DNA of 58,804 nt. It comes from a virus. Taxonomy: Duplodnaviria > Caudoviricetes. Positions 119-57,964 of this stretch are shown here, in pieces (positions within the stretch are counted from its first letter, which is position 1; each line of letters begins with the position of its first letter). The stretch lies in the IMG/VR virus record IMGVR_UViG_3300046777_001311, positions 1-58,804 of that record; one strand, written 5' to 3'. Both the position numbers and the translations under genes were made by a program. The notes beneath the pieces were generated by a model, which was not told where the DNA came from, ran no database searches, and saw only the letters and a program-made list of their open reading frames with translations.

Positions 119-2428
119 TTATAAGTTACCTGATATTTCTACCTCTTTTTGCTTTTCTAAAGTTCCCTCTTGAGCAAGTTCTGCCATACGGTGTTGGTGC
201 TTCAAATCTTCCAACAACGCCTTTTGTTGGTATTCAGTAAGCATTCTACCAGTCTTAATTTGTTCAAGCGCAGCCTCAGCACGAGCCTTAGCCTCTTGAG
301 CCATCATAGCAGACTTTTGTTGCTCTTGAGCAGTTACTTGAATTGCTCTAAGTTTCTCCTCCTCCATACGTTTTCTTGAACGCTCCTCTGATAGGTTTAG
401 ATACCATGAGGCAAATTCCTCATTACCCTTTTCAAGCTCCTTCTCTATAAATAAGAAGTCACTCATTGTTATACCTATCATTCCACTCTTTCCTGCTTTC
501 ATTGACTCTGTGGCGGCTTGCAAAATAATGCGTTTACGCTCATTAGTTGGAGCAGATGTCATTGTTATCCCTAATTGCTCAAGAGTTAAGTCTTCAAATG
601 CGTTTAAAGCATTCATTCTCTCAGAGCCAATAATATGCTCGTAGTAATTCTGCACGTCTTTATCAAAGTGCATGTTAGTACGAGTTTTAAGAACAATCTT
701 TTTAGCCGCCTTTTCTTTCAATCTCATCAAAGCCTTCTTCAATGGATATAAAGCGTGATTGGTTGCGTCTACCTCAATTTGAGATATACCCAAACCTTTG
801 TCAGGATTATCAGTAGGCATAGCCGCCATAGCTGGAGTAATACCGGCTAAGTCCATAACCCTATTCATATCATCTTGCCAACATGTTAGCCACTCTTGTA
901 ATTGAGGACCGATACCACCAGGAAGTTCATTAATAGCATTGTATCCACCACCCTTATTTAAAAGGTCGGTCTTTGACTGAATGAACTGATTACCCGTTTG
1001 ACGACGAATACGAATAAGTTCTAATGGAGACATTTTACCAAATCCCATATCCATATTAGCTAATAAGCCAATATCAATGATAAGACCTTTAGGTGCTGCA
1101 CTCCATTTAGCGGCTTGCAATTTAATCCATGTCAACATCAAAGAATCAAGGTGTGGCTTCCATCTTTCAACGATAGATTTTCCAGGCACACGCTCAAAGA
1201 AGTAGGATAATACAACATTACCCTTCGTATCTCTCATCATATTCTTTTGTAAACCAAAATCGTAAACGAACTTAGTTCCAAGAATATGTTTTCCTTCATA
1301 TAAATTCTGCACGCATGTTACATCAGTCTTTCTTGTTCGACCATCAGCATACGGCTTTTTAATTTGACCAAACTCCTCCTTTCCATACACATATACGCCA
1401 TCCTTCTTTTGACGACCTGTATAGTACTCGTAATCATTTGCTTTATATTCAAAGTGAAGAACTTCAACAACAAAATCCTCCCAAATATATCTTCCAGTTA
1501 CAGGATCTTTTCTATTAAAGTTAAAGTCCTTATCGCTATAACCTTGAGTTTCGTAATAGATTCGTGCAAGATTTTCAAGGTCCATAGGTGTAGCACCCAA
1601 AGCCAAAAGCTTATCTTTAATGTCCTTAATTTGAACTCGCTCAATATGTCCTGCAAAAGCTGGCTCTTGTTCTTCATTCTCATCAATATATGCTGTTACA
1701 AATGATGCTGGATTTACAAATTTAACTCGTGTAGATCCATCATCCTCAGTATATACACGACCAACTGCAAAGTTTGTCTCAACAAGCTTTTCAGTAGTAC
1801 GCAAACGAATCTTATCCCAATCACTGATGTTAAAAGTATGCTCTACAATATCCTCCATAGCTGACTCCAATGGTAATTGGAATCCGTGATACTTCTCATA
1901 CATATTTAACTCAGACTCTGTACTTGGCGCCCAATCGTATATTACTGGCGGCAATCCAAGTTCAGCGCGAAGCGGATTTAGAATAGTATTGTCATAATAC
2001 ATTTTCCACTTCATATATTGCTTCTCGTGTTTAGCGTCTTTAGTTAAACATTCAACATTAACTTTATAGTCGCTAGACGAAAGAACTGATTTGATAACTG
2101 AAACAAACTTAGGCGCAGGACTTACAATCTCATAGCTTACGTTTGTATATGCTTTACGAGAATACTCTGTAAAGTTTCTATCGGTTTGATTCTTATCATT
2201 CTTAACTCCCAAAAACCAATCACGGTATGGGGCAGAAGATTGTCTTGCCTCAGAATAGTCAACCATCATTTGAAACCAACCGGTAGCACTATGACCAAAC
2301 AAAGTTCTACCGTTGTACCAACGAGAGTAGATAGCTTGGGCTACCTGACGTATATAGTCAAGCTGATTTTTTTGCTCTTTAGGCACATTGTCGGATGGAA
2401 ATCCGATTATTTCGCTGAATTTCAACAT
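119..2428 (-). CDS. Portal protein (crAss-like/flavobacterial podovirus type)
   Basis: About 770 aa immediately downstream of TerL; helical/coiled-coil C-terminus; ATG at 2428 preferred over TTG at 2437 because a TATATTTG promoter sits at 2435-2442. Confidence 0.8.
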   Translation of the reverse strand: MLKFSEIIGFPSDNVPKEQKNQLDYIRQVAQAIYSRWYNGRTLFGHSATGWFQMMVDYSEARQSSAPYRDWFLGVKNDKNQTDRNFTEYSRKAYTNVSYEIVSPAPKFVSVIKSVLSSSDYKVNVECLTKDAKHEKQYMKWKMYYDNTILNPLRAELGLPPVIYDWAPSTESELNMYEKYHGFQLPLESAMEDIVEHTFNISDWDKIRLRTTEKLVETNFAVGRVYTEDDGSTRVKFVNPASFVTAYIDENEEQEPAFAGHIERVQIKDIKDKLLALGATPMDLENLARIYYETQGYSDKDFNFNRKDPVTGRYIWEDFVVEVLHFEYKANDYEYYTGRQKKDGVYVYGKEEFGQIKKPYADGRTRKTDVTCVQNLYEGKHILGTKFVYDFGLQKNMMRDTKGNVVLSYFFERVPGKSIVERWKPHLDSLMLTWIKLQAAKWSAAPKGLIIDIGLLANMDMGFGKMSPLELIRIRRQTGNQFIQSKTDLLNKGGGYNAINELPGGIGPQLQEWLTCWQDDMNRVMDLAGITPAMAAMPTDNPDKGLGISQIEVDATNHALYPLKKALMRLKEKAAKKIVLKTRTNMHFDKDVQNYYEHIIGSERMNALNAFEDLTLEQLGITMTSAPTNERKRIILQAATESMKAGKSGMIGITMSDFLFIEKELEKGNEEFASWYLNLSEERSRKRMEEEKLRAIQVTAQEQQKSAMMAQEAKARAEAALEQIKTGRMLTEYQQKALLEDLKHQHRMAELAQEGTLEKQKEVEISGNL

Positions 2429-2434
2429 TATTGG

Positions 2435-2442
2435 CAAATATA
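2435..2442 (-). promoter_or_regulatory. Bacteroidota sigma-A -7 element (TATATTTG) for the portal gene
   Basis: CAAATATA on + strand, 7 nt upstream of the ATG. Confidence 0.5.
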
Positions 2443-2488
2443 TTAATCTATTACAAAATTACTATGCACTTTTTAATATTTATTCAAC

Positions 2489-4906
2489 TTAATCAAAAAA
2501 TTCAAGCAAATCATTCATTATACGAGTTGAATTTGCCTCCTGAATGTATTTAGGGAACGCACTCTTTGAGCCAAGGAGAGCCATACCTCCTGCTGAGAAC
2601 AAGTCATAATTGGTCATTTCGCTTGGGTCGTTAATCTCTAAACACTCCTCAAGAAGCTCTAAGTGGTTATCATTCTTACCAAACATTCTAATATAGTTCA
2701 TGTACTCAGTAAAGATTTGCTCCTTATCCGCCTCACCCGTATAACGACCAGGCGCAGGAACTAACTTTCCATTAGCATCAATGTCATTTAATAAATACCC
2801 CTCATAACCCCACTCTCTAAACTTCTCTATCACAATGGGTACGTTTCGTTCAGGATATACGTGTGCCCCAAATAGAAGGGCCAATTTTAGCATGTCCTCG
2901 CAATATGTATTACCATCATCAACACGAATATTGTATGTTACAACAAACTTATTTGATATCCATTGATCTAAAGGCTTTTCGGCATAGTCTGTACTTGGGT
3001 CATGCTTGTAGAATACAGCACCGCCACCATTAGACTTCCTTCTACCTTTAACGTCTCGGTTATTAAACTTAAACGGGTCACATCCAAGTATATACTTGTT
3101 TACAACTTCAGATGCAGGATACCAACTATTCTTTTCGGAATCAAAGTACTTCTTATTTCTAAAATCCTCACTTGGTAAATATGAAACAACATACTTTCCT
3201 TCAGGATCATCCGTTACAACTACATTACTTCCAAAGCCATTAGACCAATCCAATCTAACAGTTCTTGTTCTAAACAATCTATCAAACTTTAATTGATTTA
3301 TTCTGCTTCTTAATATAGAAAGGTCAAAGTTTGAGTTCTTACTTGCTTTAGAGGCGGCTTCCTGTAAAGTCCATGGGTTATCTCGAATCTCACCATTCAA
3401 ACGAAGGTCAAGACCCTTCTCCTCAAGGTCCTTACGAGTATTCATTAAGATTGTTTTAGCTCCACGTGTAACGATATTCCCTTCAAGGTTTCTGACTGGC
3501 TCCACTGGATCTTCGATGATAGAGATTCCGTACTCGTCCACACATTCGTCATACCCGTCGTATGCTGGTATGAAAAGCGTGAATAAACCGCTTGTGGTGA
3601 ATCCGTTTTCGTTTCGTTCGTCATAGTATGATGATTTAATTAGGTCAAAAAACTCCTTACCACCCCCTGCCTCAAATTCACCGAGGGTAGACGTAAACAT
3701 AGCTAATCCATTGATACGCAAACCTTGAGATAGACACTTTCTAACAACGTCCTGCCATCTTCTTGGTATTGACACCCCACTATCTCCGTGCTTACCACCT
3801 TCATCATCTAAATATGCATGAAGCTTCTGACCGTCAAATGCTCTTTCGCTAGATGCACGAGCTTCAATCCAACCATCATGACTGGCTATTCTATTCTGAG
3901 ATACACCTTGAGTTCTTGCGGCTGGATATGTGAATGACAACTTCTCTTTAGGAAAGTCAGTACCATCATGTGCCGGTTTATAGAAAAATGGAATCTTTCT
4001 CCACGGCTTAACAACCTTATCTAAATAAACGTCCTCTTTTGCCTGCCTTTCTGTAATAGATTGAATACCACCCTTTTGCTGTTTGCGTTCAGTGGTTATA
4101 CAATACAATACACAAGATGCTTGAGATGTAGCACCAATACGTCTACGTTTTGGAAATATATATCCATAGCATGTTCTGTAACCCATGTCAACAACATACT
4201 TTCCCTCATCAATATAGGCGGCTGAATATTTAGATGCAAACTCCTCGGCATTCTTAACCCTTTGGAAGAACTTCTGACGAATATCCCCATCACTTCTATA
4301 TGTAACTCTATATTTATATACCGCCTCTGTTGTTGTATAGCAGTATTTAGCAAAGAGGAATATGCGGCGATCCAAATCTCGATACCAAGGAAGTGAGTCG
4401 GGTCTGGTCTCGTTTTGAATATCCCAAAAATTTAAATAAACATAATGCCAACCATCTATATATGTTGGCTTACCATTATTGAAAAACCAATATCCTTGAT
4501 ATCGTCTTTTAATCTGTATTTGTATCCATTCAATCTCATTCTTATACTCTAAACGATTCTCCTCCAATTCAGAGTATATATCATCTTGAGTAACCGCCTC
4601 CCTCTTTTTCATTCTCTTCTTTCTGCGTATAATGTCTTGAATGTTCTTTAACTTTTCAGGTACTACCTGATGTTTAAACTTTTGATTCTTAGGGTGTAGT
4701 CCGTATCCATCTATTAATTGAACCGCCTCATCCCAAGACTTACCATAAAATGATTCAACCGAAGGCAGCTTAACCTTCAAAGTTTCAAGAACGGGATCAT
4801 CGCCATGATATACAGCGTATTCATCCTCCTTCTTATATATTTCATGATACTTACTAATTGCCAACTTCTGGGAATATTTGATTAGCTTTTGATTTTCCTG
4901 GTACAA
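2489..4906 (-). CDS. terL: Terminase large subunit
   Basis: Walker A-like KRRRIGATS, Walker B YLDDEGGK, RNaseH-like nuclease ILGCDPF and C-terminal YDLFSA; next to portal; true start may be TTG at 4864. Confidence 0.9.
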   Translation of the reverse strand: MYQENQKLIKYSQKLAISKYHEIYKKEDEYAVYHGDDPVLETLKVKLPSVESFYGKSWDEAVQLIDGYGLHPKNQKFKHQVVPEKLKNIQDIIRRKKRMKKREAVTQDDIYSELEENRLEYKNEIEWIQIQIKRRYQGYWFFNNGKPTYIDGWHYVYLNFWDIQNETRPDSLPWYRDLDRRIFLFAKYCYTTTEAVYKYRVTYRSDGDIRQKFFQRVKNAEEFASKYSAAYIDEGKYVVDMGYRTCYGYIFPKRRRIGATSQASCVLYCITTERKQQKGGIQSITERQAKEDVYLDKVVKPWRKIPFFYKPAHDGTDFPKEKLSFTYPAARTQGVSQNRIASHDGWIEARASSERAFDGQKLHAYLDDEGGKHGDSGVSIPRRWQDVVRKCLSQGLRINGLAMFTSTLGEFEAGGGKEFFDLIKSSYYDERNENGFTTSGLFTLFIPAYDGYDECVDEYGISIIEDPVEPVRNLEGNIVTRGAKTILMNTRKDLEEKGLDLRLNGEIRDNPWTLQEAASKASKNSNFDLSILRSRINQLKFDRLFRTRTVRLDWSNGFGSNVVVTDDPEGKYVVSYLPSEDFRNKKYFDSEKNSWYPASEVVNKYILGCDPFKFNNRDVKGRRKSNGGGAVFYKHDPSTDYAEKPLDQWISNKFVVTYNIRVDDGNTYCEDMLKLALLFGAHVYPERNVPIVIEKFREWGYEGYLLNDIDANGKLVPAPGRYTGEADKEQIFTEYMNYIRMFGKNDNHLELLEECLEINDPSEMTNYDLFSAGGMALLGSKSAFPKYIQEANSTRIMNDLLEFFD

Positions 4907-5525
4907 CAGCTTCTGGAGCGAACATCATATATTCTTCAGGTCTTATACCCAAGTTTTCTTGAGCTAAGAATTTAGTTATCTCATGCTCAAGAGACTTAGT
5001 TGTTTCACCCTGCATGAAACGATCTCTCGCATCACTTAACTGACGTCTAACCGTCTCAATGTTAGCTAAGTGATTCTTCTGGTCGGATGGATCTTCTGGA
5101 AGTTCAAGTTCAAGAAGATTATACAACATCTCCTCCGCACGTATCATAATAGCCCAATCTTCAGGCTGTTGTAATCTCAAAAATAATAAAATCTTTGCTC
5201 GTACATTAGAGTTTTTATTCAGAAGTATGTCATTATATGCTTGCGGATATGAACCATCTTCATGAGGTTCTACACCCAACTCTCTTAATGCCCAAGACTT
5301 TCTTTTATTTAACTGCGGATAAGCCTCAATACCGGGACTTCCTGGACTGTACATGAGTATTATATACCTCATTACAAAATCAGGCGTTATATCGCTCGGC
5401 AGGCCTATGGATTGACCAAAGATAGTAGCGTGCTGTGATAAATCATGAAATTTAAATAGAACTTGATCCGTACTTGGTATACGGTCAATCCTATATTTCA
5501 TTTTTACAAATTTACTGCTATCCAT
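4854..5525 (-). CDS. Hypothetical protein, candidate terminase small subunit
   Basis: 223 aa helical protein overlapping the TerL start; function inferred from position only. Confidence 0.45.
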   Translation of the reverse strand: MDSSKFVKMKYRIDRIPSTDQVLFKFHDLSQHATIFGQSIGLPSDITPDFVMRYIILMYSPGSPGIEAYPQLNKRKSWALRELGVEPHEDGSYPQAYNDILLNKNSNVRAKILLFLRLQQPEDWAIMIRAEEMLYNLLELELPEDPSDQKNHLANIETVRRQLSDARDRFMQGETTKSLEHEITKFLAQENLGIRPEEYMMFAPEAVVPGKSKANQIFPEVGN

Positions 5526-6240
5526 TTTTCTTAGCTATTATAGAGTGTGATTGGAAATATACAAAAGGCTCTAAAATTCTATTATAAGAAAACTCAAGGT
5601 CTATTGGATTTATTCTTCTCGTCTTTACAACCTCACCAATATTACATTCAATCTTCTTCCAATTAGATTTCAAAGGGAAGTTCTTTCTCCAATCATATTT
5701 TAAATCTCCAGATGGAGTATACACTATCTCAAACATATCAGGCTCATCTCCAACAAGAGATGTGTGGTCTAAAATAATAAATGAACTTGGAGACTCCTTC
5801 TGAACCTTTTTACAAATTAAATAGTCATTTAAAGCCAAAAACTCTTCACCCCTCTTTCTTAGAACAAGCTCCTTATACGGCAAAAGGAGTAGATTTATAA
5901 CCTCTCCATTTTCTTCATACATATAATGAAACTCATCCTCTTTGTTAGTCAAGGAAATCTTAGCAATCGCGTCCTGCGTAAACCAAACTTCATCTCCAGA
6001 TTTAACCTCAACAGGTCCGTCCCAAGAATAGTTTAATTTAGGCCAGTCAGCTTGATCACTAACAGATACAACAGTTCCGCATCTAGCAGACGCCATAATC
6101 CTAGACTCATCGCTTTTTGCTGAAAAACTAAACTTCTTTTCTCCAAGAATAAAATCTGGAGTTAATACGTATGGTATACGTACAATTACACGACCTCTAC
6201 CCGGTCTGATTTTTTCTACCTCTTCCTTATTCAGAATCAT
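5518..6240 (-). CDS. GroES/Cpn10-like protein, apparently two tandem GroES-like domains
   Basis: IRPGRGRVIVRI...GTVVSVS...VEVKSGDEVWF matches the GroES pattern; second unit ALNDYLICKKV...IGEVVK. Confidence 0.65.
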   Translation of the reverse strand: MILNKEEVEKIRPGRGRVIVRIPYVLTPDFILGEKKFSFSAKSDESRIMASARCGTVVSVSDQADWPKLNYSWDGPVEVKSGDEVWFTQDAIAKISLTNKEDEFHYMYEENGEVINLLLLPYKELVLRKRGEEFLALNDYLICKKVQKESPSSFIILDHTSLVGDEPDMFEIVYTPSGDLKYDWRKNFPLKSNWKKIECNIGEVVKTRRINPIDLEFSYNRILEPFVYFQSHSIIAKKNG

Positions 6241-6346
6241 ATAACTAATTATAAGTCAACATCTCACGTCATAATCCAATAACTTTATGTTTTTGGGTTA
6301 TTTCATAATTGTATTTTTGTTTTGCCTTACCTTCCTGTTCAGAATT

Positions 6347-6372
6347 GGCGTCACAACGGTGGCGCCTTTTTT
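6347..6372 (+). terminator. Intrinsic terminator on the + strand, opposite to the flanking genes
   Basis: GGCGTCAC-AACG-GTGGCGCC (one G-U pair, pairs properly only on +) followed by T6. Confidence 0.6.
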
Positions 6373-6374
6373 GT

Positions 6375-7253
6375 TTAATGATCCCTTAACTGAACAAAGT
6401 TAGGAATCAACATGTTTGCCATTGAACCATTTTCTGACTCAATGACATAATCAAAAGATAGTATGTAGCTGCCAATAGGTTTTGGAGGTCTACCCTTCTC
6501 AATATGATATCCAAATTCGCCATCTCCATACTCCTCCTTGTAGGCGGCTGTTCTAATGTGATGAACATATCTGTGCTTAACTGAATATCCTGATCTTGGA
6601 TTGTGTTCTAAAGATTCTTGAGAATCAATAACATGATATAGTTCGTGAACGTGACCCTGCCAAATACAATCAGCTCCAGATATCATTACCCCCATACGAT
6701 TGTTTTGGATAACACCCTTTGTAACAGGTCCTCCACCACCACTACCATGATAATATTTCATGTTAAACGCATGACTTGAATGGCTCTTATATTTCATTTG
6801 AAGTTTCCACCAACCTCCATAACCTCCAGTATAAATAGATGTCTTGTTCTTATAATTCATAAGATCAACAAATCTCTGAAGAGGGTCAGTCTCTGTATTT
6901 TTAATAATTGCCGTCTCATGGTTTCCATAACCAATCCAAGCAATGTTTTGAGCGTATGGACTCCACCAGTTAACAGCATCCTCTATTACGGCGTCCAAAT
7001 AATTATGTACATTATGTTCAGGTCTAATATCCTTCTTGCTTCTGCGAGGATCCCACTTACCCTGCATTAAACAAAAAAAATCGCCATTAATAACGATTCC
7101 CATATCCTGCTCTAATGCCATGTCTAAGTGTTTTTTCAGAATATCCCTTTTACATTTTGGGTTGTCCCAATGGATATCAGACATCATCAACCATTTTTTA
7201 TCAGAAGAGCATTCTGTAATCAAAATGTTTTTTTTGTACTTTGTAGTTATCAT
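6375..7253 (-). CDS. Calcineurin-like metallophosphoesterase
   Basis: Motifs SDIHWD, NGDFF, GNHE, YHG, GHVH. Confidence 0.85.
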   Translation of the reverse strand: MITTKYKKNILITECSSDKKWLMMSDIHWDNPKCKRDILKKHLDMALEQDMGIVINGDFFCLMQGKWDPRRSKKDIRPEHNVHNYLDAVIEDAVNWWSPYAQNIAWIGYGNHETAIIKNTETDPLQRFVDLMNYKNKTSIYTGGYGGWWKLQMKYKSHSSHAFNMKYYHGSGGGGPVTKGVIQNNRMGVMISGADCIWQGHVHELYHVIDSQESLEHNPRSGYSVKHRYVHHIRTAAYKEEYGDGEFGYHIEKGRPPKPIGSYILSFDYVIESENGSMANMLIPNFVQLRDH

Positions 7254-7630: not shown

Positions 7631-7984
7631 TTAAAATGGTAAATCATCATCACCTTCTGATACCGCCTCCTGTTTTGGCGCTATCTTGCTACTCTTTTGT
7701 TGAGGAGCCGCCTCTTTAACTTCAATACCATACACATTCAATGATGTATAGTATTTACCATTATACTCTTTAGAACGAATGTTAAACTTAATGTTTGAAA
7801 CATCACCAATAGTCGGCTTTGGAGTTGAATCCAAAGATTTTCCGCCTAACGTAAATGCGTAAACATCCTTGTAGACTGTTCCGTTAACATCTCTTTCTGT
7901 CTCGACAACGAACTCAACGAAGTCGAATTGTCCGCGAGTCTGAAGCTCGCTGACAGCTACCACTTTTCCTGTAATATTAAACAT
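7631..7984 (-). CDS. Single-stranded DNA-binding protein, DUF3127/OB-fold type
   Basis: ITGKVVAV...FNIRSKEYNGKYYTSLNVY core with acidic tail GDDDLPF; ATG at 7984. Confidence 0.8.
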   Translation of the reverse strand: MFNITGKVVAVSELQTRGQFDFVEFVVETERDVNGTVYKDVYAFTLGGKSLDSTPKPTIGDVSNIKFNIRSKEYNGKYYTSLNVYGIEVKEAAPQQKSSKIAPKQEAVSEGDDDLPF

Positions 7985-7999
7985 GTAATTAATTTTTAA

Positions 8000-8030
8000 C
8001 AAATATAAAACTTTATTCTACATTGTCAAA
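8000..8030 (-). promoter_or_regulatory. Bacteroidota promoter driving ssb (-33 TTTG, -7 TATATTTG)
   Basis: CAAATATA 8000-8007 and CAAA 8027-8030, 19-nt spacer. Confidence 0.7.
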
Positions 8031-8067
8031 TATTTTTTATTAACAAATACATTGTTGATAGATTATC

Positions 8068-8097
8068 TTGACTTTTTATTTTGTGATTGTATATTTG
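8068..8097 (+). promoter_or_regulatory. Bacteroidota promoter driving the replication operon, divergent from the ssb promoter
   Basis: TTG 8068-8070 and TATATTTG 8090-8097, 19-nt spacer. Confidence 0.75.
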
Positions 8098-8111
8098 CCA
8101 TGTCGAAAGGC

Positions 8112-8200
8112 AGTTAGAGTAGCAGCTAACTAAAGAAATTTAAATAGCCCTGTGATTTAGGACGTGTCTGCTACCACTCCTAAGTTACAGGGTTTATTTT
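8112..8200 (+). ncRNA. Structured 5' leader: two hairpins with complementary loops; the second is terminator-like
   Basis: AGTTAG/CTAACT stem with loop GTAGCAG (8119-8125); long stem 8146-8194 with loop CTGCTAC (8168-8174); T-rich tail. Confidence 0.6.
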
Positions 8201-8207
8201 TAAAACT

Positions 8208-51100: not shown

Positions 51101-52025
51101 GAGCCTGCTCTTTATCTATCTCTTGAAATATAGACCAAGCTCCATTCTCTCCAACTCTTACAGCAAATCGTATTTTAGTAACGTCATACTGACCGGTGTA
51201 GTAATTTATAATTATCTCATTATCAGTGAGTGGAGCTTCTGTATCTCTACCAGAAACGTATTCATTCGTATTGCTAAACGGTTGATTTGAAATCATCGAC
51301 CATTTAGACTCCTCATTGTTATTATATACGTACTGATATCTAAATTGATATTGCTTACCATATAACTTATTAAAGCTTTTGTTTAAGTTAGTTTGATAGG
51401 CGGCTAATGGTTTATATGTAGGGGGACACTTTAAAGCGTCCATTGTGTGAAATGAATGGTCTATTGTATCAAAAGCTTCTACTGGGTATCCATCAGGATC
51501 TAAACCAGCAGTAGCCATATACTTAATAGCTTTTGGTATATCTATTTTACGAGGAGGGTTAAATTGCAATACACCGTTTCCATCATAAAGAAAATCATCA
51601 AAATAACCATCTGTCCAATAAAGTAAATCATCAACTACATTGGTGTGGTATATTTTATGGTCAATTTGAAAGTTTAACGCCTCACCTGCATTTCCTACGG
51701 CTAAATTTCCTAATACAAGAGTAATTACACTTGTATTTATATCAAAAGACCATATTGTATGAAGGTTATTTGAATTATGTACAAAATATATTATAGAATT
51801 ACCTTTAATCCATTTAGCACTTCCAATAACTGTATTTACACCAGCAGGAAGGTTTAAATTATTAACTAAAAGATTTCCAGGCATTGACTCTAAAGCCCCT
51901 TGGTTCTGAGACTCTGCCGAACCTGAACGGCAATAGGTAGACATTCTATAGTCCCCATTTTGAATTAAACGAGGATCATCATCGGTATTGATACCGTTTA
52001 TAAATAATATATCTTTTGCTTCCAT
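48192..52025 (-). CDS. Tail muzzle/stabilisation protein (P22 gp10-like role)
   Basis: 1277 aa; N-terminal GINTDDDPRLIQNGDYR, LLYWTDG...NPPRKI, FRYQY...ESKWS. Confidence 0.75.
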   Translation of the reverse strand: MEAKDILFINGINTDDDPRLIQNGDYRMSTYCRSGSAESQNQGALESMPGNLLVNNLNLPAGVNTVIGSAKWIKGNSIIYFVHNSNNLHTIWSFDINTSVITLVLGNLAVGNAGEALNFQIDHKIYHTNVVDDLLYWTDGYFDDFLYDGNGVLQFNPPRKIDIPKAIKYMATAGLDPDGYPVEAFDTIDHSFHTMDALKCPPTYKPLAAYQTNLNKSFNKLYGKQYQFRYQYVYNNNEESKWSMISNQPFSNTNEYVSGRDTEAPLTDNEIIINYYTGQYDVTKIRFAVRVGENGAWSIFQEIDKEQALVTDEVISTVIYDGNVATKPAAATQYNYDSMPQVAKCQEIISNNSITYGNYYADYDLLENIDMSITANLENVDYLARPYINEVVIGNQSNNSQPWEIDPFGQVTGTGCFIHFTSATDFFFTFEFVEGDLIVFPLYDLTTGPSSLINYYYKVTAADIAYVGNPVDKLLNLANSVSLSLIADGIPNTVNGTTAGNIYLDVPDYWTGQGDGTIYVHQCKILRENKCVKSLKKGSTKVFGIQYYDRGLRSGSVQYKASQIIPLQLDVPFPANEDLSFLTQPGNPYTVKAQVEINHTPPEWATHYQILVKKDELMINFQQRSIMYMEVLQDGFTFKMSLENFYTNRYKGTSINHTPQKGDIVRFVAKAPVIQPNPPSTAGYEQPEYCDVYYETEILEYEPAGGVDRGYGPSEAIIVAQFDYSQIFDGISGFVGALVEIYTPKPQEDDEIWYEIQDPSENYNEGYVILNPHTANRTHAGNTQDQTALQPAIIDLDYGDVYVRARNYFTGYEEPIFDTFNDFPGIANTEAGVLFRLYREVQTAAINKVYYFLGGTGGVSSTGYYLLYNQDLFNVSPMTGYYWVEDYSYSDYYKSDSHGLGRFGLDDINAKRRNLTSSVIHSLPYVQNSFINGLSSFEGLGNSLYLNDNFGSINRLKQVGYTLKALQNRKETSIYIQKSYATGGDGSGQLAYTDKVFGGVNPYDSLFGTVHPGSVQLIEGELFYFDLYTGAFIKTSSNGQSDISSGQYKFNYWTSNKATEITADTTEYDVTSMIDESNMEYTCFFGFKDGTERPRETEGVVFSYLRNRWITMVDYNPMWAETLGVVNVSWNANGQLYVHNEGDELEFYGLQKTQSVTFVMNESGTLIKRPLTLGLRSNAVFNVDSVKTYENESYPIMETEMPSTLLSLKEGYYWAAYLRDKLNTNVADPYLATTALALQNGRQLRGYAFEHTISQNTDKKVVLFSAKVVFVPSPALI

Positions 52026-52771
52026 TAGCGTATATTAAATCCACTTCCCCCGTAAATAGTATCCATCACCTCGTCAACAACAGGACCTTTAGCTAATATA
52101 TTAGCATCCCATAATGTATCTTTGTATTGACGCTCCTTATCCTTAGCCATATTAGCTAATTCAGGCTTCAACTCACACATTTGCCAAAGTAGATAGTTTC
52201 TAAAAGGTTCAATATATGCCTGAGGAACTAATGTAGATCCACAAACATCCTTACCAGAACTTAGGTATTCTATTACAGCTTTACCTGTTGGAAGAGCTTC
52301 TACAAATTGAATGTATCTCTCCGCCTCATTAACTCTGTAATAGTTTATATTAAAACCACCTCCAGCTGTATATAATGGACCGTAATATGTACCATTATAA
52401 AATCCTTCGGCTATCCAAAATCCACTGCCGATAGAAGCTGATTCAGCCTCTGCAATATCATTGCAAATATCAGGAGTATTGTTTAAAGCAATAGTATTAT
52501 CAATACCCAACGTCCATAACCTATTACCAATTTGATATGCCACCTTTGTATATCTAATATAATCGCTAGGCATCGGCCATATCTTTGTATTTGCATTTAC
52601 ATTAACATGAGCAGATACCACAGATGGCATCTCGTAACCTCTAAGCTTTTCTTGATAAAATTCCAAAGCCAACTGCTCAACCCACTCATAGTCACTTGTG
52701 GTATAGCCAAAGTTTTTCATTCGGCTTATTGCTGACATTGTAACGTATGTTATGTTCTTAATTGGATCCAT
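52025..52771 (-). CDS. Tail ring/tubular protein
   Basis: WPMPSDYIRYTKV motif; immediately upstream of the muzzle gene. Confidence 0.6.
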   Translation of the reverse strand: MDPIKNITYVTMSAISRMKNFGYTTSDYEWVEQLALEFYQEKLRGYEMPSVVSAHVNVNANTKIWPMPSDYIRYTKVAYQIGNRLWTLGIDNTIALNNTPDICNDIAEAESASIGSGFWIAEGFYNGTYYGPLYTAGGGFNINYYRVNEAERYIQFVEALPTGKAVIEYLSSGKDVCGSTLVPQAYIEPFRNYLLWQMCELKPELANMAKDKERQYKDTLWDANILAKGPVVDEVMDTIYGGSGFNIR

Positions 52772-53364
52772 TATTTAGCCGGCTGTGTTGGTTTATCTGT
52801 ATCTGGTACGTTGTTGTTATATGTCTCTCCAGGTTTTATTCCTGCTTGCTGTATCAACTGAACAACCATTTGAAAGATAATAGACTCCTTACCTGGCAAA
52901 CTGATGAAGGCATCATCGTCCATTGAATTAGGATTTGGTATCATTTCAACTGTTATATTTTCAGTTGGAGTTCCATTAAAGTATAATTTACTACCTTGTA
53001 GGTATGTAGTTGTAAAACAAGTTTGCGGCTTGATAATATTCATGATGTGATTCTCAATCGTACCCATTCTTGTTGGGTAAAAGCAACCGTCAGAACCACT
53101 AACATAAGTTATGCTATCGCTACCCATTAAAGGTGTAACCGGCAAATTCACATAATATCTTGGAGAAACACCCTGTCTTTGTAATTCATAAGGAACAGAT
53201 GTATCCCTCTTACCATTCTCACTCTTATATGCTAAATCAGTATAAACAAGACCAACCAAATAGGCAATTACTTGATATGGGTATTTACCCTTTATATCAT
53301 CAGTTACATCATCGCCTGCTAGACGATTCTGTATCAATTCCACCATTTGACGTTTAGTAATCAT
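52771..53364 (-). CDS. Tail ring/adaptor protein
   Basis: Size and position in the ring-protein cluster; YYVNLP motif. Confidence 0.5.
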   Translation of the reverse strand: MITKRQMVELIQNRLAGDDVTDDIKGKYPYQVIAYLVGLVYTDLAYKSENGKRDTSVPYELQRQGVSPRYYVNLPVTPLMGSDSITYVSGSDGCFYPTRMGTIENHIMNIIKPQTCFTTTYLQGSKLYFNGTPTENITVEMIPNPNSMDDDAFISLPGKESIIFQMVVQLIQQAGIKPGETYNNNVPDTDKPTQPAK

Positions 53365-54083
53365 TATTGACCTTTATTTATATCTAATGTCTGCAAGTTA
53401 AATGCAGATTGAATGTTAATAGTAAAGTATTTTACAATTAATTCCACAAGGTTGTAGTGAACAGATTCGGGCCATTCAAATTCAACGCTTTCGCTTGGTG
53501 TTCCTGCTGGTAGAACCGAGCTGTTTTGATGAACCGTTCCAGGAGGTAGATAAAATATCTCGCTGTTTACAATGTCGTAATCAAATACAGGGTCAACAGG
53601 TCTACGTAAATATGAAAATATTATGTTGTTAACACCAATAGGGCGTACAAGCCATTTATTATTTTGTATCACGGCTATAGGACGCTCTAAAGATGGTGCT
53701 AATATATCTGTTCCTAATCTATAACCAAAGTCAGCCTGATTTAAAAACTCAATAGGTCTAACCTTTTCTATAGCTCCATCACACTCATTTACATATTGAG
53801 TATAGGATGATCTAACATAATAATAGTAATCTTCAGGTATATCCATGTACCCAAATGAATCTAGCTGTAAAGGGACAGATGTACTATCTCCTATAGTCTT
53901 TACAAATGGAAGCAAATCATCAGTTATCTCTCTCTTCTCCTCAAAAACTTTGAGCAAATCATTGATCTGCTCTAAGTTAATCCACTTTATTGCCTCGTTA
54001 TAATTTCTAGGAGTAATATAACCACCATACTGGTCTTTACCAAGTTGATTATAAACCTTGTCTAATATTTCTCCTAAATTCAT
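53364..54083 (-). CDS. Tail ring/adaptor protein
   Basis: GGYITPRNYN, IPEDYYY, YLRRP, FEWP motifs typical of crAss-type ring proteins. Confidence 0.6.
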   Translation of the reverse strand: MNLGEILDKVYNQLGKDQYGGYITPRNYNEAIKWINLEQINDLLKVFEEKREITDDLLPFVKTIGDSTSVPLQLDSFGYMDIPEDYYYYVRSSYTQYVNECDGAIEKVRPIEFLNQADFGYRLGTDILAPSLERPIAVIQNNKWLVRPIGVNNIIFSYLRRPVDPVFDYDIVNSEIFYLPPGTVHQNSSVLPAGTPSESVEFEWPESVHYNLVELIVKYFTINIQSAFNLQTLDINKGQ

Positions 54084-54087
54084 ATAA

Positions 54088-54864
54088 TTAAGAATAAATT
54101 CTAACCTCTATGCTTGCGTAATAAATTGCGTTGTTAGCTAAAACTCCAGATGAGTTATATGATCTAATTAATATGTAATTATTTCCATCATACCAAGCTT
54201 CAACAGAACCACCAGGAGCAAAAACGCTAGTTCCATTTTGAATAAAAACAGCAACTTTATCAGTTGGCACTCCTGCTAAACTTGTAAATGTTAATTTATA
54301 AACACCTGCTGATACATATTGAGTTGACGCAGTCCCTAAATCATTTTCTAATTCAAAATTTATAGAAGGTGCTGATGCTCCTATTTGTGTTATGCTACCA
54401 ACGAATTTAGTATACAACTGAACAGCTGATGCGCCTTGAGGTCCTGTAGGTCCTTGAACACCCTGAGGTCCTTGAGCACCTTGAGATGCAAGTAATGCCC
54501 AATTAGTAGTGTCCACATCTGGAGCCAATATAGATGGCCCAACAGGATTTAGACAAAACCAAGAAGCTCCTGCGTATCCTACAGCATCATCTGCAACATA
54601 AGTACCTGTAGTAGACCATGCACCCTGCCAATTTAATCCAGCAGGACCTACGGGGCCAATAGGACCAGCAGGACCTTGTACACCTTGTGGACCGGCAGGA
54701 CCAGCAGGGAGTATAGATGCGAAATTTGAAACAGATATAATGTTTCCACTATTTGGACTATTAACATCAACTAAGTTTACATAAGTATCTGATGGTGATG
54801 TTATACTTTGCCTTTGTATATTAGGCGCATTTTTTCTTAAATAAAACCAGTTTTGAATCGGCAT
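54088..54864 (-). CDS. Collagen-like fibre protein with a small Trp-rich carbohydrate-binding-like module
   Basis: GXY repeats flanking NWQGAW...Y...DAV.Y.GASWFC...NWALLA. Confidence 0.7.
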   Translation of the reverse strand: MPIQNWFYLRKNAPNIQRQSITSPSDTYVNLVDVNSPNSGNIISVSNFASILPAGPAGPQGVQGPAGPIGPVGPAGLNWQGAWSTTGTYVADDAVGYAGASWFCLNPVGPSILAPDVDTTNWALLASQGAQGPQGVQGPTGPQGASAVQLYTKFVGSITQIGASAPSINFELENDLGTASTQYVSAGVYKLTFTSLAGVPTDKVAVFIQNGTSVFAPGGSVEAWYDGNNYILIRSYNSSGVLANNAIYYASIEVRIYS

Positions 54865-54882
54865 GTTTTTATATTTTTTAAA

Positions 54883-56916
54883 TTATGATAAATCAACTCC
54901 ATATACTAATGCACCTCCATTTATAGGATCTAATATTCCATCAGATAACACTCCACCTGAGTTGTATGTGTATATTTGTATATATCCGTTTGATGAGAAG
55001 TAATATTTGTAATATCCATAAGATGGATCTAATTGAACTACATCATACCCACTTGCAGGAGATAGTGAAACAAAGTTACTTGGAGTTGGGTTAGTTGAAT
55101 CGTAAATAACATATTGACCTACACCACTTCTTAAAAATGTATCGTAGTTAAAGTTTGTTGTATTCCAAAATACATTTAAAACAGGGTCTGACGTTCCTGT
55201 TTGATTTATTAAACCATAGAAGGCTTTAGCGCCTGCTGCTGAAATACCTTGAGGTCCCTGTGGGCCTTGTGGTCCAACAGGCCCTTGTGCACCAGTTGGT
55301 CCTTGTGGGCCTGGATCTCCTTGTGGTCCTTGAGCACCAACTGCACCATCTAAACCAGCAGGTCCTTGTGGTCCAACAGCTCCTTGTGAAGCTAAAAGCG
55401 CCCAGTTTGTAGGATCTGTATCAGGTGTTGAAGCAGATGGTCCAACAGGGTTAATACAGAACCAAGAAGCTCCGTTATATGCAACTGCATCATCCACTAC
55501 ATAAACACCACTTGGACTCCATGTTCCTTGCCAGTTCAACCCAGCAGGTCCAACAGGTCCTTGAGGTCCGGCAGGTCCAGTAGCTCCTGTTGCACCAGTA
55601 GCTCCAGCAGGACCAGTAGGTCCAGTAGCTCCTGCAACACCTTGAGGACCAGCAGGTCCGGTAGCTCCAACAGGTCCAACAATTTGAGGTATAGCATCTA
55701 TCTCTGCCTGCAAATTACTTATTTCAACAAGAAGCTGTTCAAAGATAGAAGTACCATCTTGAGATGCGTTATCCACCCAAGCAGGAGTGTCTTCTCCAGA
55801 ACAACAATCACAACCACATTCAACACCACTTGCGTTGAGTAATTCAACCATAGCGTTGTAATAGTTTGTGTATTGATCGTAATCACCACAAGCTTGAGCC
55901 TCTTTTGCTAATGGATATAATAATGATATTCCATCAACGTATTTTGTATATGGGCTTGATGTTCCACATCCTAAAGCAGCCATGTGCTTTACATATAGAG
56001 CATCAATACAATCTCTTATAGAGCAAAGAGTTCCTACGCATGTAACTTGAAACTCTTTTGAGAAATCAATGTTATCAGCAATACTTAATCCATCAACTTG
56101 GGTTATAGCGGCTGTAACAGATAAATTTGTTGTCCATGTTCCGGTAGCTAACTCAGATAAAGCCAAGTTAGGAAGTGTAGTTGTTTGTGGATTAACTACA
56201 GGTACAGGAACAAGACCATTAGGATAATATGCACTAATCTCGCGATCAATAGGCGTCCAAGACCCATAAGCAGTTGAGTCTGTAAATTCAATAGTTCCAA
56301 ACTGAGTAGCTTGACAATCATATACAGCTGTTATGTTAGGTTCTACACGAGTACAACCTGAATATGTATATGATAAATTATTAGCACGATTTACAATAAA
56401 GCTAAGACCACAATCCCCATCCGTAATTAAGCTTTCTGCAACAGTGATTGTAGTTATACCTGCAATATAAGTAACAGAAACAACAGTCTTGGACCCATTA
56501 TTTGCACCACCTGAATTTAAAACTATATTATCTCCTGATTGTAGAACATTAGATAAATCAGTTACGTTAGATGTAATAGTATTTACACCAGTAGTTGTAG
56601 CCCATCCTGTTGTAGAAAAATAATTAAAATTTGCAGTATATGTCAAGTTGTACACGCCATTTACAATCTCACCATTCATTACAGGTAGGTTGTATGCAGG
56701 GCTTATAATAGAACCTGCTGAAATATTAATTGGCGGCGTTACGGTATTGGTTTCAGAAACAAAAGCTACACCAGTAGGACCTGTCATTACAATAAGACCC
56801 TTTGTTGTAACAAGTGATGTATTTACACCTTGACCGGTATATGTAGTTTCATCTTTAACAACGACTGTATTGTTGTTTACATTAAAGGTTGTTAAAATGT
56901 CAAATGTAATAGGCAT
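54883..56916 (-). CDS. Virion structural protein with Cys-rich hub-like region and collagen-like fibre
   Basis: CGCDCC; long GXY runs; same Trp-rich module as the neighbour; ATG 56916. Confidence 0.7.
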   Translation of the reverse strand: MPITFDILTTFNVNNNTVVVKDETTYTGQGVNTSLVTTKGLIVMTGPTGVAFVSETNTVTPPINISAGSIISPAYNLPVMNGEIVNGVYNLTYTANFNYFSTTGWATTTGVNTITSNVTDLSNVLQSGDNIVLNSGGANNGSKTVVSVTYIAGITTITVAESLITDGDCGLSFIVNRANNLSYTYSGCTRVEPNITAVYDCQATQFGTIEFTDSTAYGSWTPIDREISAYYPNGLVPVPVVNPQTTTLPNLALSELATGTWTTNLSVTAAITQVDGLSIADNIDFSKEFQVTCVGTLCSIRDCIDALYVKHMAALGCGTSSPYTKYVDGISLLYPLAKEAQACGDYDQYTNYYNAMVELLNASGVECGCDCCSGEDTPAWVDNASQDGTSIFEQLLVEISNLQAEIDAIPQIVGPVGATGPAGPQGVAGATGPTGPAGATGATGATGPAGPQGPVGPAGLNWQGTWSPSGVYVVDDAVAYNGASWFCINPVGPSASTPDTDPTNWALLASQGAVGPQGPAGLDGAVGAQGPQGDPGPQGPTGAQGPVGPQGPQGPQGISAAGAKAFYGLINQTGTSDPVLNVFWNTTNFNYDTFLRSGVGQYVIYDSTNPTPSNFVSLSPASGYDVVQLDPSYGYYKYYFSSNGYIQIYTYNSGGVLSDGILDPINGGALVYGVDLS

Positions 56917-56938
56917 ACTCTTAGGTTTGTACAAAACT

Positions 56939-56968
56939 AAAAAAGGTAGCCGAACTAACGACTACCTT
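56939..56968 (-). terminator. Intrinsic terminator
   Basis: Minus strand AAGGTAGTCG-TTAGTT-CGGCTACCTT running into a T tract. Confidence 0.75.
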
Positions 56969-57007
56969 CTAAACTATTTATTCTACTCAGTTAAAAAGTA
57001 ATTGACA

Positions 57008-57964
57008 TTACTTTGAGTACTTCTCAATAATTGATTGTAATTCAGCATCTTGAGACACCTTCTCAATCAAATTAAAGATCTCCTCATCTTCTGATGAACC
57101 TTCAATCTTGCAAATTGACTTTGGCTTACCACCTGTCTTAATCTTCCAATCTGCACCATCGCTGTAGATTTTAGTTTCATCAATTAATGACGATATTTTA
57201 TTCTTCAAGCTTGTAGTTTCAACAACTCTTTCAACTGTAGGAGCCTCTGTGAATTTAGGCTTTTCTACAGGAGCTAAATTTGATTTTAATTCTACATACT
57301 TAGCATAAGCTCTTTGAGATGATGAAATGTTGTCAAATAGACGTATACGGTCTACCTTCTCTTCATTTCTAACATCTAATCCAAGCTTTGGCATAATGTG
57401 CTTAACAACCTCGTATGATACACGAGTTCCTTCAATAAGAATCTCATCTTCAATCTTACGGCGGCTTGCGATATTATCCCATTTAGAAATAACCTCTACT
57501 TCTGGAATTACAAACGAAAAATCTGCATTATCTCTTTTGTAAGAGCAATCGTTGTTTGAAAACTCAGGACAGTAAAACCACAAAAATATAAGTAGTTCTA
57601 AATCTGTTTTTGGAGCAAGTTTAGTATTGTGAGCTAACTTCAAATTTAAATTATTAAATCTGAAATCACCACCTGAAAAAGTAGGTGCTGTCTTTGAATA
57701 AACAACCTCAACTTTAAATCCATCCTCTACATCATATCCAATAGACTTAATACCTTTTGGAACTGGTGGGATAGATCTCATTCCAACTCTAGCGTCTCCG
57801 CCTGGTTTAAATAAATCCACATTACGCATTCTATGTTTAGCATAATTAAACATAATTGGTAGTGGATTTTCTTTCCTAAAAAATGATGGGAATTTGTGTT
57901 TTAGGATTTCTACATGACCTTGTAGATCCTCTTTTGTTAACCTTTTGCCTTCTCTGTATAACAT
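57008..57964 (-). CDS. Hypothetical protein downstream of MCP (possible capsid cargo protein)
   Basis: 318 aa; function inferred from position only. Confidence 0.55.
   Translation of the reverse strand: MLYREGKRLTKEDLQGHVEILKHKFPSFFRKENPLPIMFNYAKHRMRNVDLFKPGGDARVGMRSIPPVPKGIKSIGYDVEDGFKVEVVYSKTAPTFSGGDFRFNNLNLKLAHNTKLAPKTDLELLIFLWFYCPEFSNNDCSYKRDNADFSFVIPEVEVISKWDNIASRRKIEDEILIEGTRVSYEVVKHIMPKLGLDVRNEEKVDRIRLFDNISSSQRAYAKYVELKSNLAPVEKPKFTEAPTVERVVETTSLKNKISSLIDETKIYSDGADWKIKTGGKPKSICKIEGSSEDEEIFNLIEKVSQDAELQSIIEKYSK

What the first reader, a model, noticed from the sequence alone, without database searches (positions are those of the whole stretch)
511..57470. Genome-wide polarised GGCGGCT/AGCCGCC motif that flips at ~13.5 kb and ~7 kb: a Chi-like element
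Seen (by-eye counts): from 14.4 to 57.5 kb, GCGGC occurs about 50 times on + versus about 10 for GCCGC. From 7.7 to 12.4 kb the ratio reverses (about 7 GCCGC versus 1). From 0.5 to 6.6 kb it is again mostly GCGGC. Orientation is independent of coding strand: + genes at 8-13 kb and 14-28 kb have opposite polarity, and - genes at 29-58 kb keep the + form. It occurs in different frames (Ala-Ala, Gly-Gly, Trp-Arg-Leu, Ser-Gly-Phe) and in intergenic DNA (about 14484, 14889, 27864). It is densest just right of the non-coding gap (about 14 copies in 14.4-19.4 kb). Established: Chi sites (E. coli GCTGGTGG, B. subtilis AGCGG) are short, over-represented, polar and attenuate RecBCD/AddAB approaching from the 3' side. 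Inference: with linear ends near 13.5 kb, (A)GCCGC(C) faces an exonuclease entering from either end and flips near the internal origin. The phage may have saturated itself with the host Chi to protect its ends and feed RecET recombination, which would also reveal a candidate Bacteroidota Chi. A translocase-orienting (KOPS-like) or primase-site role is the alternative.
Basis: partly seen in the sequence, partly recalled or inferred. Interest (0 to 1): 0.8.

Follow-up and report, generated by a model that had tools for sequence, protein, structure and literature searches.

The report
Strand-polar GCGGC motif in a phage
An uncultured freshwater phage carries about 70 copies of the short word GGCGGCT all pointing away from a non-coding gap beside its replication genes, whichever way the genes run; this marks a direction-reading DNA process, probably replication priming or nuclease control.

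Summary
Exact counts on the + strand are GCGGC 63 and GCCGC 21. The ratio is 8:3 in 1-7 kb, 1:7 in 7-13.5 kb, 26:4 in 13.5-28.5 kb and 28:7 in 28.5-58.8 kb. The excess survives synonymous-codon shuffling with z of 5 to 17. It is the top hit of an unbiased scan for words polar in both gene orientations. At Ala-Ala dipeptides the codon choice reverses with gene orientation.

The trait is shared by close relatives (TerL at least 86% identical). It is absent from sister phages. Sites turn over fast. One switch is sharp and conserved, and lies in the repeat-rich gap beside the replication module.

The word is neither enriched nor polar in the candidate host genomes I sampled. The host is unknown.

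The phage encodes a T7 gp4-like primase-helicase with a zinc ribbon. My best reading is a replication-polar signal diverging from an origin in the gap, most likely preferred priming sites on the lagging-strand template (0.35). A Chi-like role remains possible (0.28).

The parts
14485..58804 (+). Right arm, first part. GCGGC(K) sites are mostly on the + strand (54 versus 11 between 14.4 and 57.5 kb). The arm crosses + genes (14.5-28.7 kb) and - genes (28.7-58.8 kb).
1..6548 (+). Right arm continued across the contig ends (portal, TerL and packaging genes on the - strand). Sites are mostly on the + strand (8 versus 3).
7707..12401 (-). Left arm. Sites are on the - strand (7 versus 1). It covers the initiator, the primase-helicase and downstream genes.
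12545..14553 (.). Non-coding, repeat-rich gap holding the sharp - to + switch (last - site 12397, first + site 14485). It contains direct repeats at 13153-13206, 13555-13639 and 13648-13777, a 61-nt inverted repeat at 13650-13774, and AT-rich stretches. It is hypervariable between strains. I propose it as the origin.
13155..13203 (.). Cluster of three DnaA-box-like 9-mers, each one mismatch from TTATCCACA. It is not conserved in relatives, so it is weak evidence.
13439..15143 (.). Four copies of the palindrome TTYCACGTGRAA (starts 13439, 14332, 14433, 15132). They flank the switch here and in relatives L162, L163 and L170. Probably operator sites.
9383..11098 (+). T7 gp4-like primase-helicase. 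It has a Cys4 zinc ribbon (CPVC...CNHC, residues 29-58), a Toprim domain and a DnaB_C domain.
8208..8984 (+). DnaD-like replication initiator or helicase loader.
11095..11628 (+). Protein with a DnaA C-terminal helix-turn-helix domain.
21320..22988 (+). Recombination module: a PD-(D/E)XK exonuclease (RecE/exonuclease VIII-like, 21320-22177) and RecT (22179-22988).
119..4906 (-). Portal (119-2437) and large terminase (2489-4906). The packaging operon starts near 8.0 kb, inside the fuzzy + to - switch zone (6.5-9.6 kb).

Best explanation
GGCGGC(T/G), with core GCGGC, is a DNA-level signal selected on one strand. That strand is the lagging-strand template, which has the same sequence as the nascent leading strand, on both sides of an origin in the 12.6-14.5 kb gap.

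From the gap, one fork would run right through the early genes, the late genes and the packaging genes. The other would run left through the roughly 5-kb replication module. The two arms end in a fuzzy zone at about 6.5-9.6 kb. That zone could be a terminus, or the physical ends of a linear genome replicated as T7 is from an origin near one end.

The phage's T7 gp4-like primase-helicase travels 5' to 3' on exactly that strand. Its zinc ribbon reads short template words. I propose the word is its preferred priming site. By analogy (inferred, not shown), T or G at the 3' side would be the uncopied base and the primer would start pppGCC.

A G+C-rich word is rare in a 37% G+C genome. Selection has therefore raised it about four-fold on the template strand only, to about one per 830 bases.

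Shown: the polarity, the selection at DNA level, the lineage specificity, the sharp switch in the gap, and the domain make-up of the primase-helicase. Inferred: the origin, the fork directions, and the primase as reader.
For: 1. Selection acts on DNA, not on protein.
- Excess persists under synonymous shuffles.
- At Ala-Ala, the first codon is GCC in 29 of 77 cases against 91 of 780 elsewhere, in genes where the word must be antisense. It is GCG in 10 of 18 cases against 16 of 193 in early genes, where the word must be sense.
- Six of 7 intergenic sites follow the polarity.

2. Polarity is tied to the genome, not to transcription.
- It is the top word in both gene orientations.
- In relative L163, nine consecutive - sites cross ORFs of both strands. 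Twelve consecutive + sites then follow. The switch is flanked by the same palindromes as in the window.

3. The switch lies beside the initiator and primase-helicase genes, in a gap full of direct and inverted repeats.

4. Enrichment is uniform along the genome: 3.3 to 6 fold in all four gene blocks. Spacing is more even than random: CV 0.76 against 0.98, P = 0.013, largest gap 3083 bases.

5. Only 9 of 35 sites are shared with G001, against 15.8% identity of background 5-mers. Density and polarity are nevertheless kept.

6. A phage-intrinsic reader fits the distribution.
- The word is not enriched or polar in sampled candidate hosts.
- The trait is limited to the clade whose primase is at least 77% identical.
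- Between clades with and without the trait, the zinc-ribbon region is 49-51% identical, against 68-69% for the helicase domain.
- The sister clade has no convincing polar word of its own.

7. The primase-helicase matches solved T7 gp4 structures and has CxxC...CxxC, Toprim and DnaB_C.
Against: - No origin, fork direction or terminus is shown.
- The known T7 gp4 sites show no strand polarity in T7 itself: 140 versus 139 right of its origin. There is therefore no precedent.
- Known primases read about three bases. A 5 to 7 base preference would be unusual.
- The full 7-mer is also somewhat above expectation in the minority orientation (3 versus 0.3 and 3 versus 0.5).
- The second switch is fuzzy, and mixed in relatives L007-L011.
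- Third-position base skews do not show a replication signature.
- The DnaA-box-like cluster in the gap is not conserved.
- Faster divergence of the zinc ribbon is weak evidence, because such domains may diverge fast in any case (my assumption, not checked).
- A Chi-type word on the leading-strand sequence would have exactly the same geometry.
Confidence: 0.35

Rival explanations
1. Chi-like site. The word, on one of its two strands, is recognised by the host's AddAB or RecBCD-type helicase-nuclease. It would turn degradation of phage DNA ends or broken forks into recombination.

There are two geometries. In (a), GGCGGCT is active and sits on the leading-strand sequence away from an origin in the gap, as Chi does in bacterial chromosomes, and faces ends at about 7-8 kb.
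For: - The word is short, asymmetric, over-represented and polar.
- The 7-mer density is 36 per 58.8 kb, one per 1.6 kb. Chi-rich phage LLS has one per 1.86 kb with 20:3 orientation, and MD8 has 32:0 (PMC12315714, passages seen).
- Raw density is highest next to the gap: 14 sites in 14.4-19.4 kb here, and 9 and 12 sites within 3.6 kb on either side in L163. This resembles the terminal clustering in LLS.
- The core contains GCGG, as do the Firmicute AddAB Chi words (recalled from memory, not from a call).
- The Chi of Bacteroides AddAB was unknown in 2010 (PMC2887965, passages seen).
- Fast site turnover with kept density fits a distributed signal.
Against: - The word is not enriched or polar in any sampled Bacteroidia genome.
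  - Flavobacterium: 69:81, Markov 150 versus 157, 4 GGCGGCT in 365 kb.
  - Bacteroidaceae: rank 144 of 174 polar 5-mers.
  - Five genomes with the highest counts are 53-57% G+C, and the word is unexceptional there.
  - In the places listed (the first 100 rows of each genome; 50 for G008), no contig of G007, G008, G252, G439, G170 or G164 showed a one-strand bias.
- None of 456 sampled genomes I judged likely to be low in G+C, taking the reversed-word control count as a rough proxy, approaches the phage's density. G+C itself was measured in seven genomes only.
- The phage has a RecE/RecT module. In lambdoid phages, Chi-rich genomes are those without Rec modules (abstract).
- The sister clade has no polar word.
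- After correction for base composition, enrichment does not decay with distance from the gap.
- Geometry (b) needs a C-rich Chi, unlike all the known Chi words I recall.
Confidence: 0.28
2. Another polar signal for a DNA-tracking or strand-specific machine. Candidates are a KOPS-like guide steering a translocase toward the convergence zone at about 7-8 kb, which lies just upstream of the packaging operon. Another is strand-specific nicking sites as in T5-like phages. A third is loading sites for a phage single-strand DNA protein.
For: - The 5' to 3' direction of the G-rich word converges on 6.5-7.7 kb from both sides. This is next to the start of the packaging operon.
- Polarity is independent of genes.
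- The reader protein could be one of the clade-specific genes of unknown function, such as 14554-14886 or 18007-18321, which gave no family match.
Against: - The density of one per 0.8 kb is far above what I recall for KOPS.
- No FtsK-like gene, nickase or other candidate reader was found.
- No precedent known to me for terminase guidance by polar words.
Confidence: 0.17
3. No function. The pattern is a by-product of mosaic history plus context-dependent mutation or codon-pair bias. For example, the 8-12.6 kb module may have been acquired in the opposite orientation.

Alternatively it could be avoidance of inversely oriented Type III restriction sites.
For: - The 8-12.6 kb block has odd codon usage: third-position A exceeds T and C exceeds G, unlike the other three blocks.
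- The gap region is a mosaic hot spot.
- One-orientation site sets are a known escape from Type III enzymes (recalled, T7 and EcoP15I).
Against: - The majority orientation is enriched 3 to 6 fold. The minority orientation is not depleted. Restriction avoidance predicts the opposite.
- Codon choice at one dipeptide reverses with gene orientation.
- Polarity is kept in G001 at mostly different positions.
- The sharp switch recurs in diverged relatives.
Confidence: 0.08

Closest known systems
Chi-rich lambdoid phages (LLS, MD8; Zheng et al. 2025, PMC12315714; abstract and passages seen)
   Same: A short asymmetric word at about one per 1.6-1.9 kb, with strong orientation bias, in a phage genome.
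   Different: - There the word is the host's known Chi, all sites share one orientation, they cluster at one end, and the phages lack Rec modules.
- Here the word is not enriched in sampled candidate hosts.
- Here the polarity is bipolar with a sharp internal switch.
- Here the enrichment is uniform and a RecE/RecT module is present.
Bacterial replichore-polar words (Chi, KOPS and architecture-imparting sequences)
   Same: The word lies on the leading-strand sequence on both sides of a switch point, independent of gene strand.
   Different: - The replicon is only 60 kb.
- The arms are very unequal (about 5 kb and about 52 kb).
- The density is about ten times higher.
- The trait is specific to one lineage.
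T7 gp4 primase recognition sites (5'-(G/T)GGTC, GTGTC; recalled from memory)
   Same: The phage encodes a gp4-like zinc-ribbon primase-helicase. That enzyme reads the strand on which the word is enriched. A 3' flanking base is constrained (T or G in 64 of 69 majority sites).
   Different: In T7 these sites are not strand-polar (140:139). No primase site has been reported as a genome-wide polar excess. My literature search returned 6 papers, of which I saw titles and abstracts only; none reports one.
Mycobacteriophage stoperators (recalled from memory)
   Same: Many copies of an asymmetric word dispersed over a phage genome in one orientation.
   Different: Stoperators follow the direction of transcription. 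This word does not.

Membership tests
Chi (crossover hotspot instigator) | Short asymmetric word, over-represented in the genome that carries it | tested here: met
   GCGGC 84 versus 50 Markov-expected, z 7.0. Codon-shuffle z of 5 to 17.
Chi (crossover hotspot instigator) | Orientation bias relative to DNA ends or replication direction | tested here: met
   69 of 84 sites follow a bipolar scheme. Ends and origin are not mapped.
Chi (crossover hotspot instigator) | The same word is frequent and replichore-polar in the host chromosome | tested here: inconclusive
   Not met in any genome I sampled. The class-wide counts do not suggest it either. The host is unknown.
Chi (crossover hotspot instigator) | Recognised by RecBCD or AddAB, with attenuation of the nuclease | not testable with these tools
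   Needs a biochemical assay with the host enzyme.
Chi-rich phage class of Zheng et al. 2025 | No phage recombination module | tested here: not met
   RecE-like exonuclease and RecT at 21320-22988.
gp4-type primase recognition site | The phage encodes a primase-helicase with a zinc-binding domain, Toprim and a DnaB-like helicase | tested here: met
gp4-type primase recognition site | Sites lie on the lagging-strand template | tested here: inconclusive
   True only if the origin is in the gap, which is inferred from the switch, the repeats and the neighbouring genes. No replication data.
gp4-type primase recognition site | Primers start at the word | not testable with these tools
   Needs a priming assay or primer mapping.
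gp4-type primase recognition site | Known sites show a polar excess in the model phage | tested here: not met
   T7: 140 versus 139 right of the origin.
KOPS-type translocase guide | Polar word converging on a resolution or target site, read by an FtsK-like motor | tested here: inconclusive
   Convergence at 6.5-7.7 kb. No FtsK-like gene was found among the proteins scanned.
Type III restriction evasion | One orientation of the site is depleted | tested here: not met
   The minority orientation is at expectation and the majority is enriched.

The most novel reading that the evidence does not exclude
A phage lineage has rebuilt its whole genome around the template preference of its own gp4-like primase. 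A G+C-rich priming word is kept at about one per 830 bases on the lagging-strand template only. Origin, fork directions and replication mode could then be read from the sequence alone. This would be the first genome-wide 'primase-site skew'. The alternative bold reading is that the word is the unknown Chi of a freshwater Bacteroidota host.
Probability: 0.3. Interest if true: 0.78.

Novelty: new variant of a known kind. Interest (0 to 1): 0.62.

Why it matters
Polar, over-represented words are how cells and some phages tell DNA-tracking machines which way they are going. In phages the only documented case I found is host Chi in lambdoid phages that lack recombinases.

This case is a bipolar array with a sharp internal switch. 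It sits in a phage that has its own recombinase and its own primase-helicase. The word is not special in the candidate hosts I sampled.

If the primase reads it, this gives a sequence-only way to find origins and replication modes in uncultured phages, and a new kind of selection on phage genomes. If host AddAB reads it, it names the first candidate Chi for Bacteroidota. Either way it makes a concrete biochemical test possible.

Tried and rejected
**Host identification failed**
- No tRNA genes.
- No nucleotide match in cultured phages.
- No prophage relative found with a TerL alignment.
- A 20-kb DNA search of 401 genomes of the Flavobacterium family gave only short weak matches and no spacer-like hit.

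**Physical ends could not be mapped**
- All 24 runs were stored as contigs, not raw reads.
- Laid contigs show no pile-ups of ends. One contig bridges 1-9026 and runs beyond position 1.

**Artefact caught**
- The place lists suggested one-strand runs in several bacterial genomes (G252, G280, G309, G335, G435).
- Full lists and real sequence (GGCGGCT 6 versus 4 within the coding masks of 400 kb) showed this came from listing order and truncation.
- I withdrew that lead.

**Reversed-word control is unreliable**
- TCGGCGG is itself almost absent from many genomes.
- 'Motif far above control' was therefore not evidence for the motif.

**Sister-clade word TAGCAA**
- It is 55:11 in G002 and 30:8 in G005.
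- It is mostly explained by codon context, with z of 2.7 and 1.2.
- G005 is 92% identical to G002, so it is not independent.

**Other leads dropped**
- Mononucleotide third-position skews gave no replication signal.
- The DnaA-box-like cluster is unique to the window.
- Clade-specific proteins gave no informative family.
- Type III restriction avoidance was rejected, because the pattern is enrichment and not depletion.
- A transcription-relative model (antisense everywhere except the early genes) was rejected. In L163 the nine - sites cross ORFs of both strands.
- Supplements of papers were not consulted. Supplemental tables of PMC12315714 may hold Chi counts for phages with Rec modules that bear on the comparison.

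Full report
**What the window is.** The window is a whole virus record (G000, 58,804 bases). It is classed as linear, and CheckV estimates 89% completeness.
- Relatives have about 1.8 kb between the homologues of the last gene and the portal gene, so a small piece is probably missing between the contig's ends. A contig from another sample runs beyond position 1.
- The genes form four blocks:
  - A: - strand, 119-8002, with portal, large terminase and packaging genes.
  - B: + strand, 8208-12544, with a DnaD-like initiator, a primase-helicase and a DnaA-HTH protein.
  - A gap at 12.6-14.5 kb.
  - C: + strand, 14554-28707, with small early genes, an amidoligase/amidotransferase pair, a RecE-like exonuclease and RecT.
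  - D: - strand, 28667-58800, with structural genes including a 2718-residue protein.
- The DNA occurs in freshwater metagenomes of 15 studies.
- The only cultured phages with a detectable TerL relative (26-28% identity, 87 records) infect Flavobacteriia.

- Overall, GCGGC is 63 and GCCGC is 21 on the + strand.
- By segment the ratios are 8:3 (1-7 kb), 1:7 (7-13.5 kb), 26:4 (13.5-28.5 kb) and 28:7 (28.5-58.8 kb).
- There are 14 + copies in 14.4-19.4 kb.
- Intergenic copies lie at 14485, 14890 and 27865.
- The consensus is G-GCGGC-K. G precedes the core in 44 of 69 majority sites. T or G follows it in 64 of 69.

**It is not a coding artefact.** Four results show this.
- Under 1000 synonymous shuffles per gene block, the majority orientation is 3.3 to 6 fold above expectation in all four blocks, with z of 4.6 to 7.7 for the 5-mer and up to 16.8 for the 7-mer. 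The minority orientation is at expectation.
- I scanned all 4- to 6-mers for words skewed the same way in - genes (A and D) and in + genes (C). GCGGC comes first at k=5 (36:11, 26:4, and 1:6 in B). GCGGCT comes first at k=6.
- At Ala-Ala dipeptides in blocks A, B and D, the first codon is GCC in 29 of 77 cases, against 91 of 780 Ala codons before other residues (p = 4e-8). In block C it is GCG in 10 of 18 cases, against 16 of 193 (p = 3e-6). The same dipeptide is therefore spelled oppositely depending on which DNA strand must carry the word.
- Six of 7 intergenic sites obey the polarity.

**It is a lineage trait under selection for density, not for position.**
- Relatives found through TerL and through the primase split into two groups.
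- Contigs with TerL at least 86% identical and primase at least 77% identical carry the excess and the polarity. These are G001, L001-L013, L022 and L160-L170.
- In G001, GCGGC is again the top 5-mer (86 versus 51, z 6.7). It is polar in both gene classes (35:19 and 25:4) and is confirmed by shuffles (17 versus 7.0 and 34 versus 12.9).
- Contigs with TerL 83-85% identical (G002-G005) do not carry it. GCGGCT there is 9:8, 3:4, 3:3 and 2:5, against 36:17 in G001.
- Phages whose primase is 39-47% identical do not carry it either (0 to 0.4 sites per kb).
- Between G000 and G001, only 9 of 35 alignable sites are shared. The reverse count is 9 of 33. Background 5-mer identity is 15.8%. Eight of the 26 lost sites differ only synonymously.
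- On the long arm, 62 sites have a mean gap of 830 bases. The CV is 0.76 against 0.98 for random placement (P = 0.013), and the largest gap is 3083 bases.

**Geometry.**
- One switch is sharp. In the window the last - site is at 12397 and the first + site at 14485.
- In L163 (primase 78% identical), nine consecutive - sites are followed by twelve consecutive + sites. Those nine cross ORFs of both strands. The switch is flanked by the same TTYCACGTGRAA palindromes as in the window. L162 behaves likewise.
- The gap holds several direct repeats, a 61-nt inverted repeat and AT-rich stretches. It is hypervariable between strains.
- A cluster of three DnaA-box-like words at 13155-13203 is unique to the window, so it is weak evidence.
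- The other switch, at 6.5-9.6 kb, is fuzzy, and is mixed in L007-L011.
- The G-rich word points away from the gap on both sides and converges near the start of the packaging operon.
- By the rule quoted in PMC12315714, Chi must lie on the strand whose 3' end is at the nuclease's entry end. A G-rich Chi would therefore face ends near 7-8 kb.
- After allowing for base composition or codon content, enrichment does not fall with distance from the gap.

**Candidate hosts.** I reached Bacteroidota genomes with a 16S probe and counted the 7-mer in 401 genomes sampled across the class and in 55 named genomes.
- In the named Flavobacteriia genomes it is rare (about 20 to 200 per genome) and similar to the reversed-word control.
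- In a 365-kb Flavobacterium contig (32.5% G+C, one replichore by GC skew), GCGGC is 69:81. It is at Markov expectation (150 versus 157) and ranks 605 of 1024. GGCGGCT occurs 4 times, which is 0.011 per kb against 0.61 per kb in the phage.
- In 400 kb of a Bacteroidaceae chromosome, the polar words are G/T-rich and GCGGC ranks 144 of 174.
- The genomes with the highest counts (G170, G173, G239, G164, G351) are 53-57% G+C. There the 5-mer is under-represented by the Markov model (z -2 to -3 in the four samples) and the 7-mer is ordinary.
- Place lists for G007, G008, G252, G439, G170 and G164 (the first 100 rows of each; 50 for G008) show no contig-wide polarity.
- Apparent one-strand runs in the lists were a listing artefact.
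- The real host is unknown. This weakens the host-Chi reading but does not refute it.

**Mechanism.**
- The primase-helicase has a CxxC...CxxC zinc ribbon, a Toprim domain and a DnaB-like helicase domain. Its only solved relatives are T7 gp4 structures.
They move 5' to 3' and use the zinc ribbon to pick short template words whose 3' base is not copied.
- If the origin lies in the gap, the word is on that template on both arms. A G+C-rich word that is rare in 37% G+C DNA would need selection to stay frequent there and nowhere else.
- This reading explains several features together: one-strand enrichment, uniform density, even spacing, turnover, lineage specificity and the lack of a host signal.
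- It also fits the absence of a counterpart word in the sister clade. That clade's zinc-ribbon region is only 49-51% identical, against 68-69% for the helicase domain.
- Against it, the known T7 sites are not polar in T7 (140:139), and a 5 to 7 base preference is unusual.
- A Chi-like word on the leading-strand sequence has identical geometry, and has a phage precedent in LLS and MD8. Those phages lack Rec modules, and their word is the host's.

**Odds and rating.**
- Primase reading: 0.35.
- Chi-like: 0.28.
- Another polar signal: 0.17.
- No function: 0.08.
- The broader statement, that this is a selected, replication-oriented polar signal diverging from the gap, I put near 0.6.

The phenomenon is real, clean and unusual for a phage, but its reader is not identified. 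I rate it a new variant of a known kind, with interest 0.62.

Noticed in passing
window 15569-17721: Adjacent genes carry an Amidoligase_2 domain (weak, E 1.3e-4) and a class-II glutamine amidotransferase domain. Homologues occur in G001, G003 and L163. From memory, such pairs have been linked to hypermodified bases in phage DNA.
   Followed up: no
window 13439, 14332, 14433, 15132: The palindrome TGTTCCACGTGGAACA and its variants occur four times around the gap. Near-identical 23-29-base matches to the copy at 14326-14354 recur in more than a dozen genomes of the sampled Flavobacterium family. This may be an operator for a host-type regulator, and a weak hint at the host family.
   Followed up: partly
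bacterial genomes; G170 (L229-L248): The 7-mer TCGGCGG/CCGCCGA is almost absent (0-5 copies) from roughly one in six sampled Bacteroidia genomes. It occurs 0 times in 399 kb of G170 at 53% G+C. This is a strong word avoidance of unknown cause.
   Followed up: partly
window 37447-45603: A 2718-residue protein in the structural block has MORN repeats, a 'large polyvalent protein' domain (LPD23) and a weak SprT-like match.
   Followed up: no
window 12000-15400: This region is a strain-variable hot spot. Contigs from four samples show many skips, replacements and loose ends here, with small indels at 13375-13452.
   Followed up: no
window ends (1 and 58804): The record is probably short by about 1.8 kb between the gene at 58036-58800 and the portal gene. 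Relatives carry that much there, and a contig of run X4 extends about 2.3 kb beyond position 1.
   Followed up: partly
G002 and G005 (L027-L030, L037-L038): TAGCAA is skewed 55:11 and 30:8 on one strand. Codon shuffles explain most of it (z 2.7 and 1.2).
   Followed up: yes
G239:C1:1-100000 (L258-L262): GGCGGCT is 23 versus 57 on the two strands of a 100-kb stretch of a 57% G+C Bacteroidia genome. Gene orientation was not controlled.
   Followed up: no
window 8208-12544: The replication block has third-position composition unlike the rest of the genome: A exceeds T and C exceeds G. This suggests a separate history for the module.
   Followed up: no
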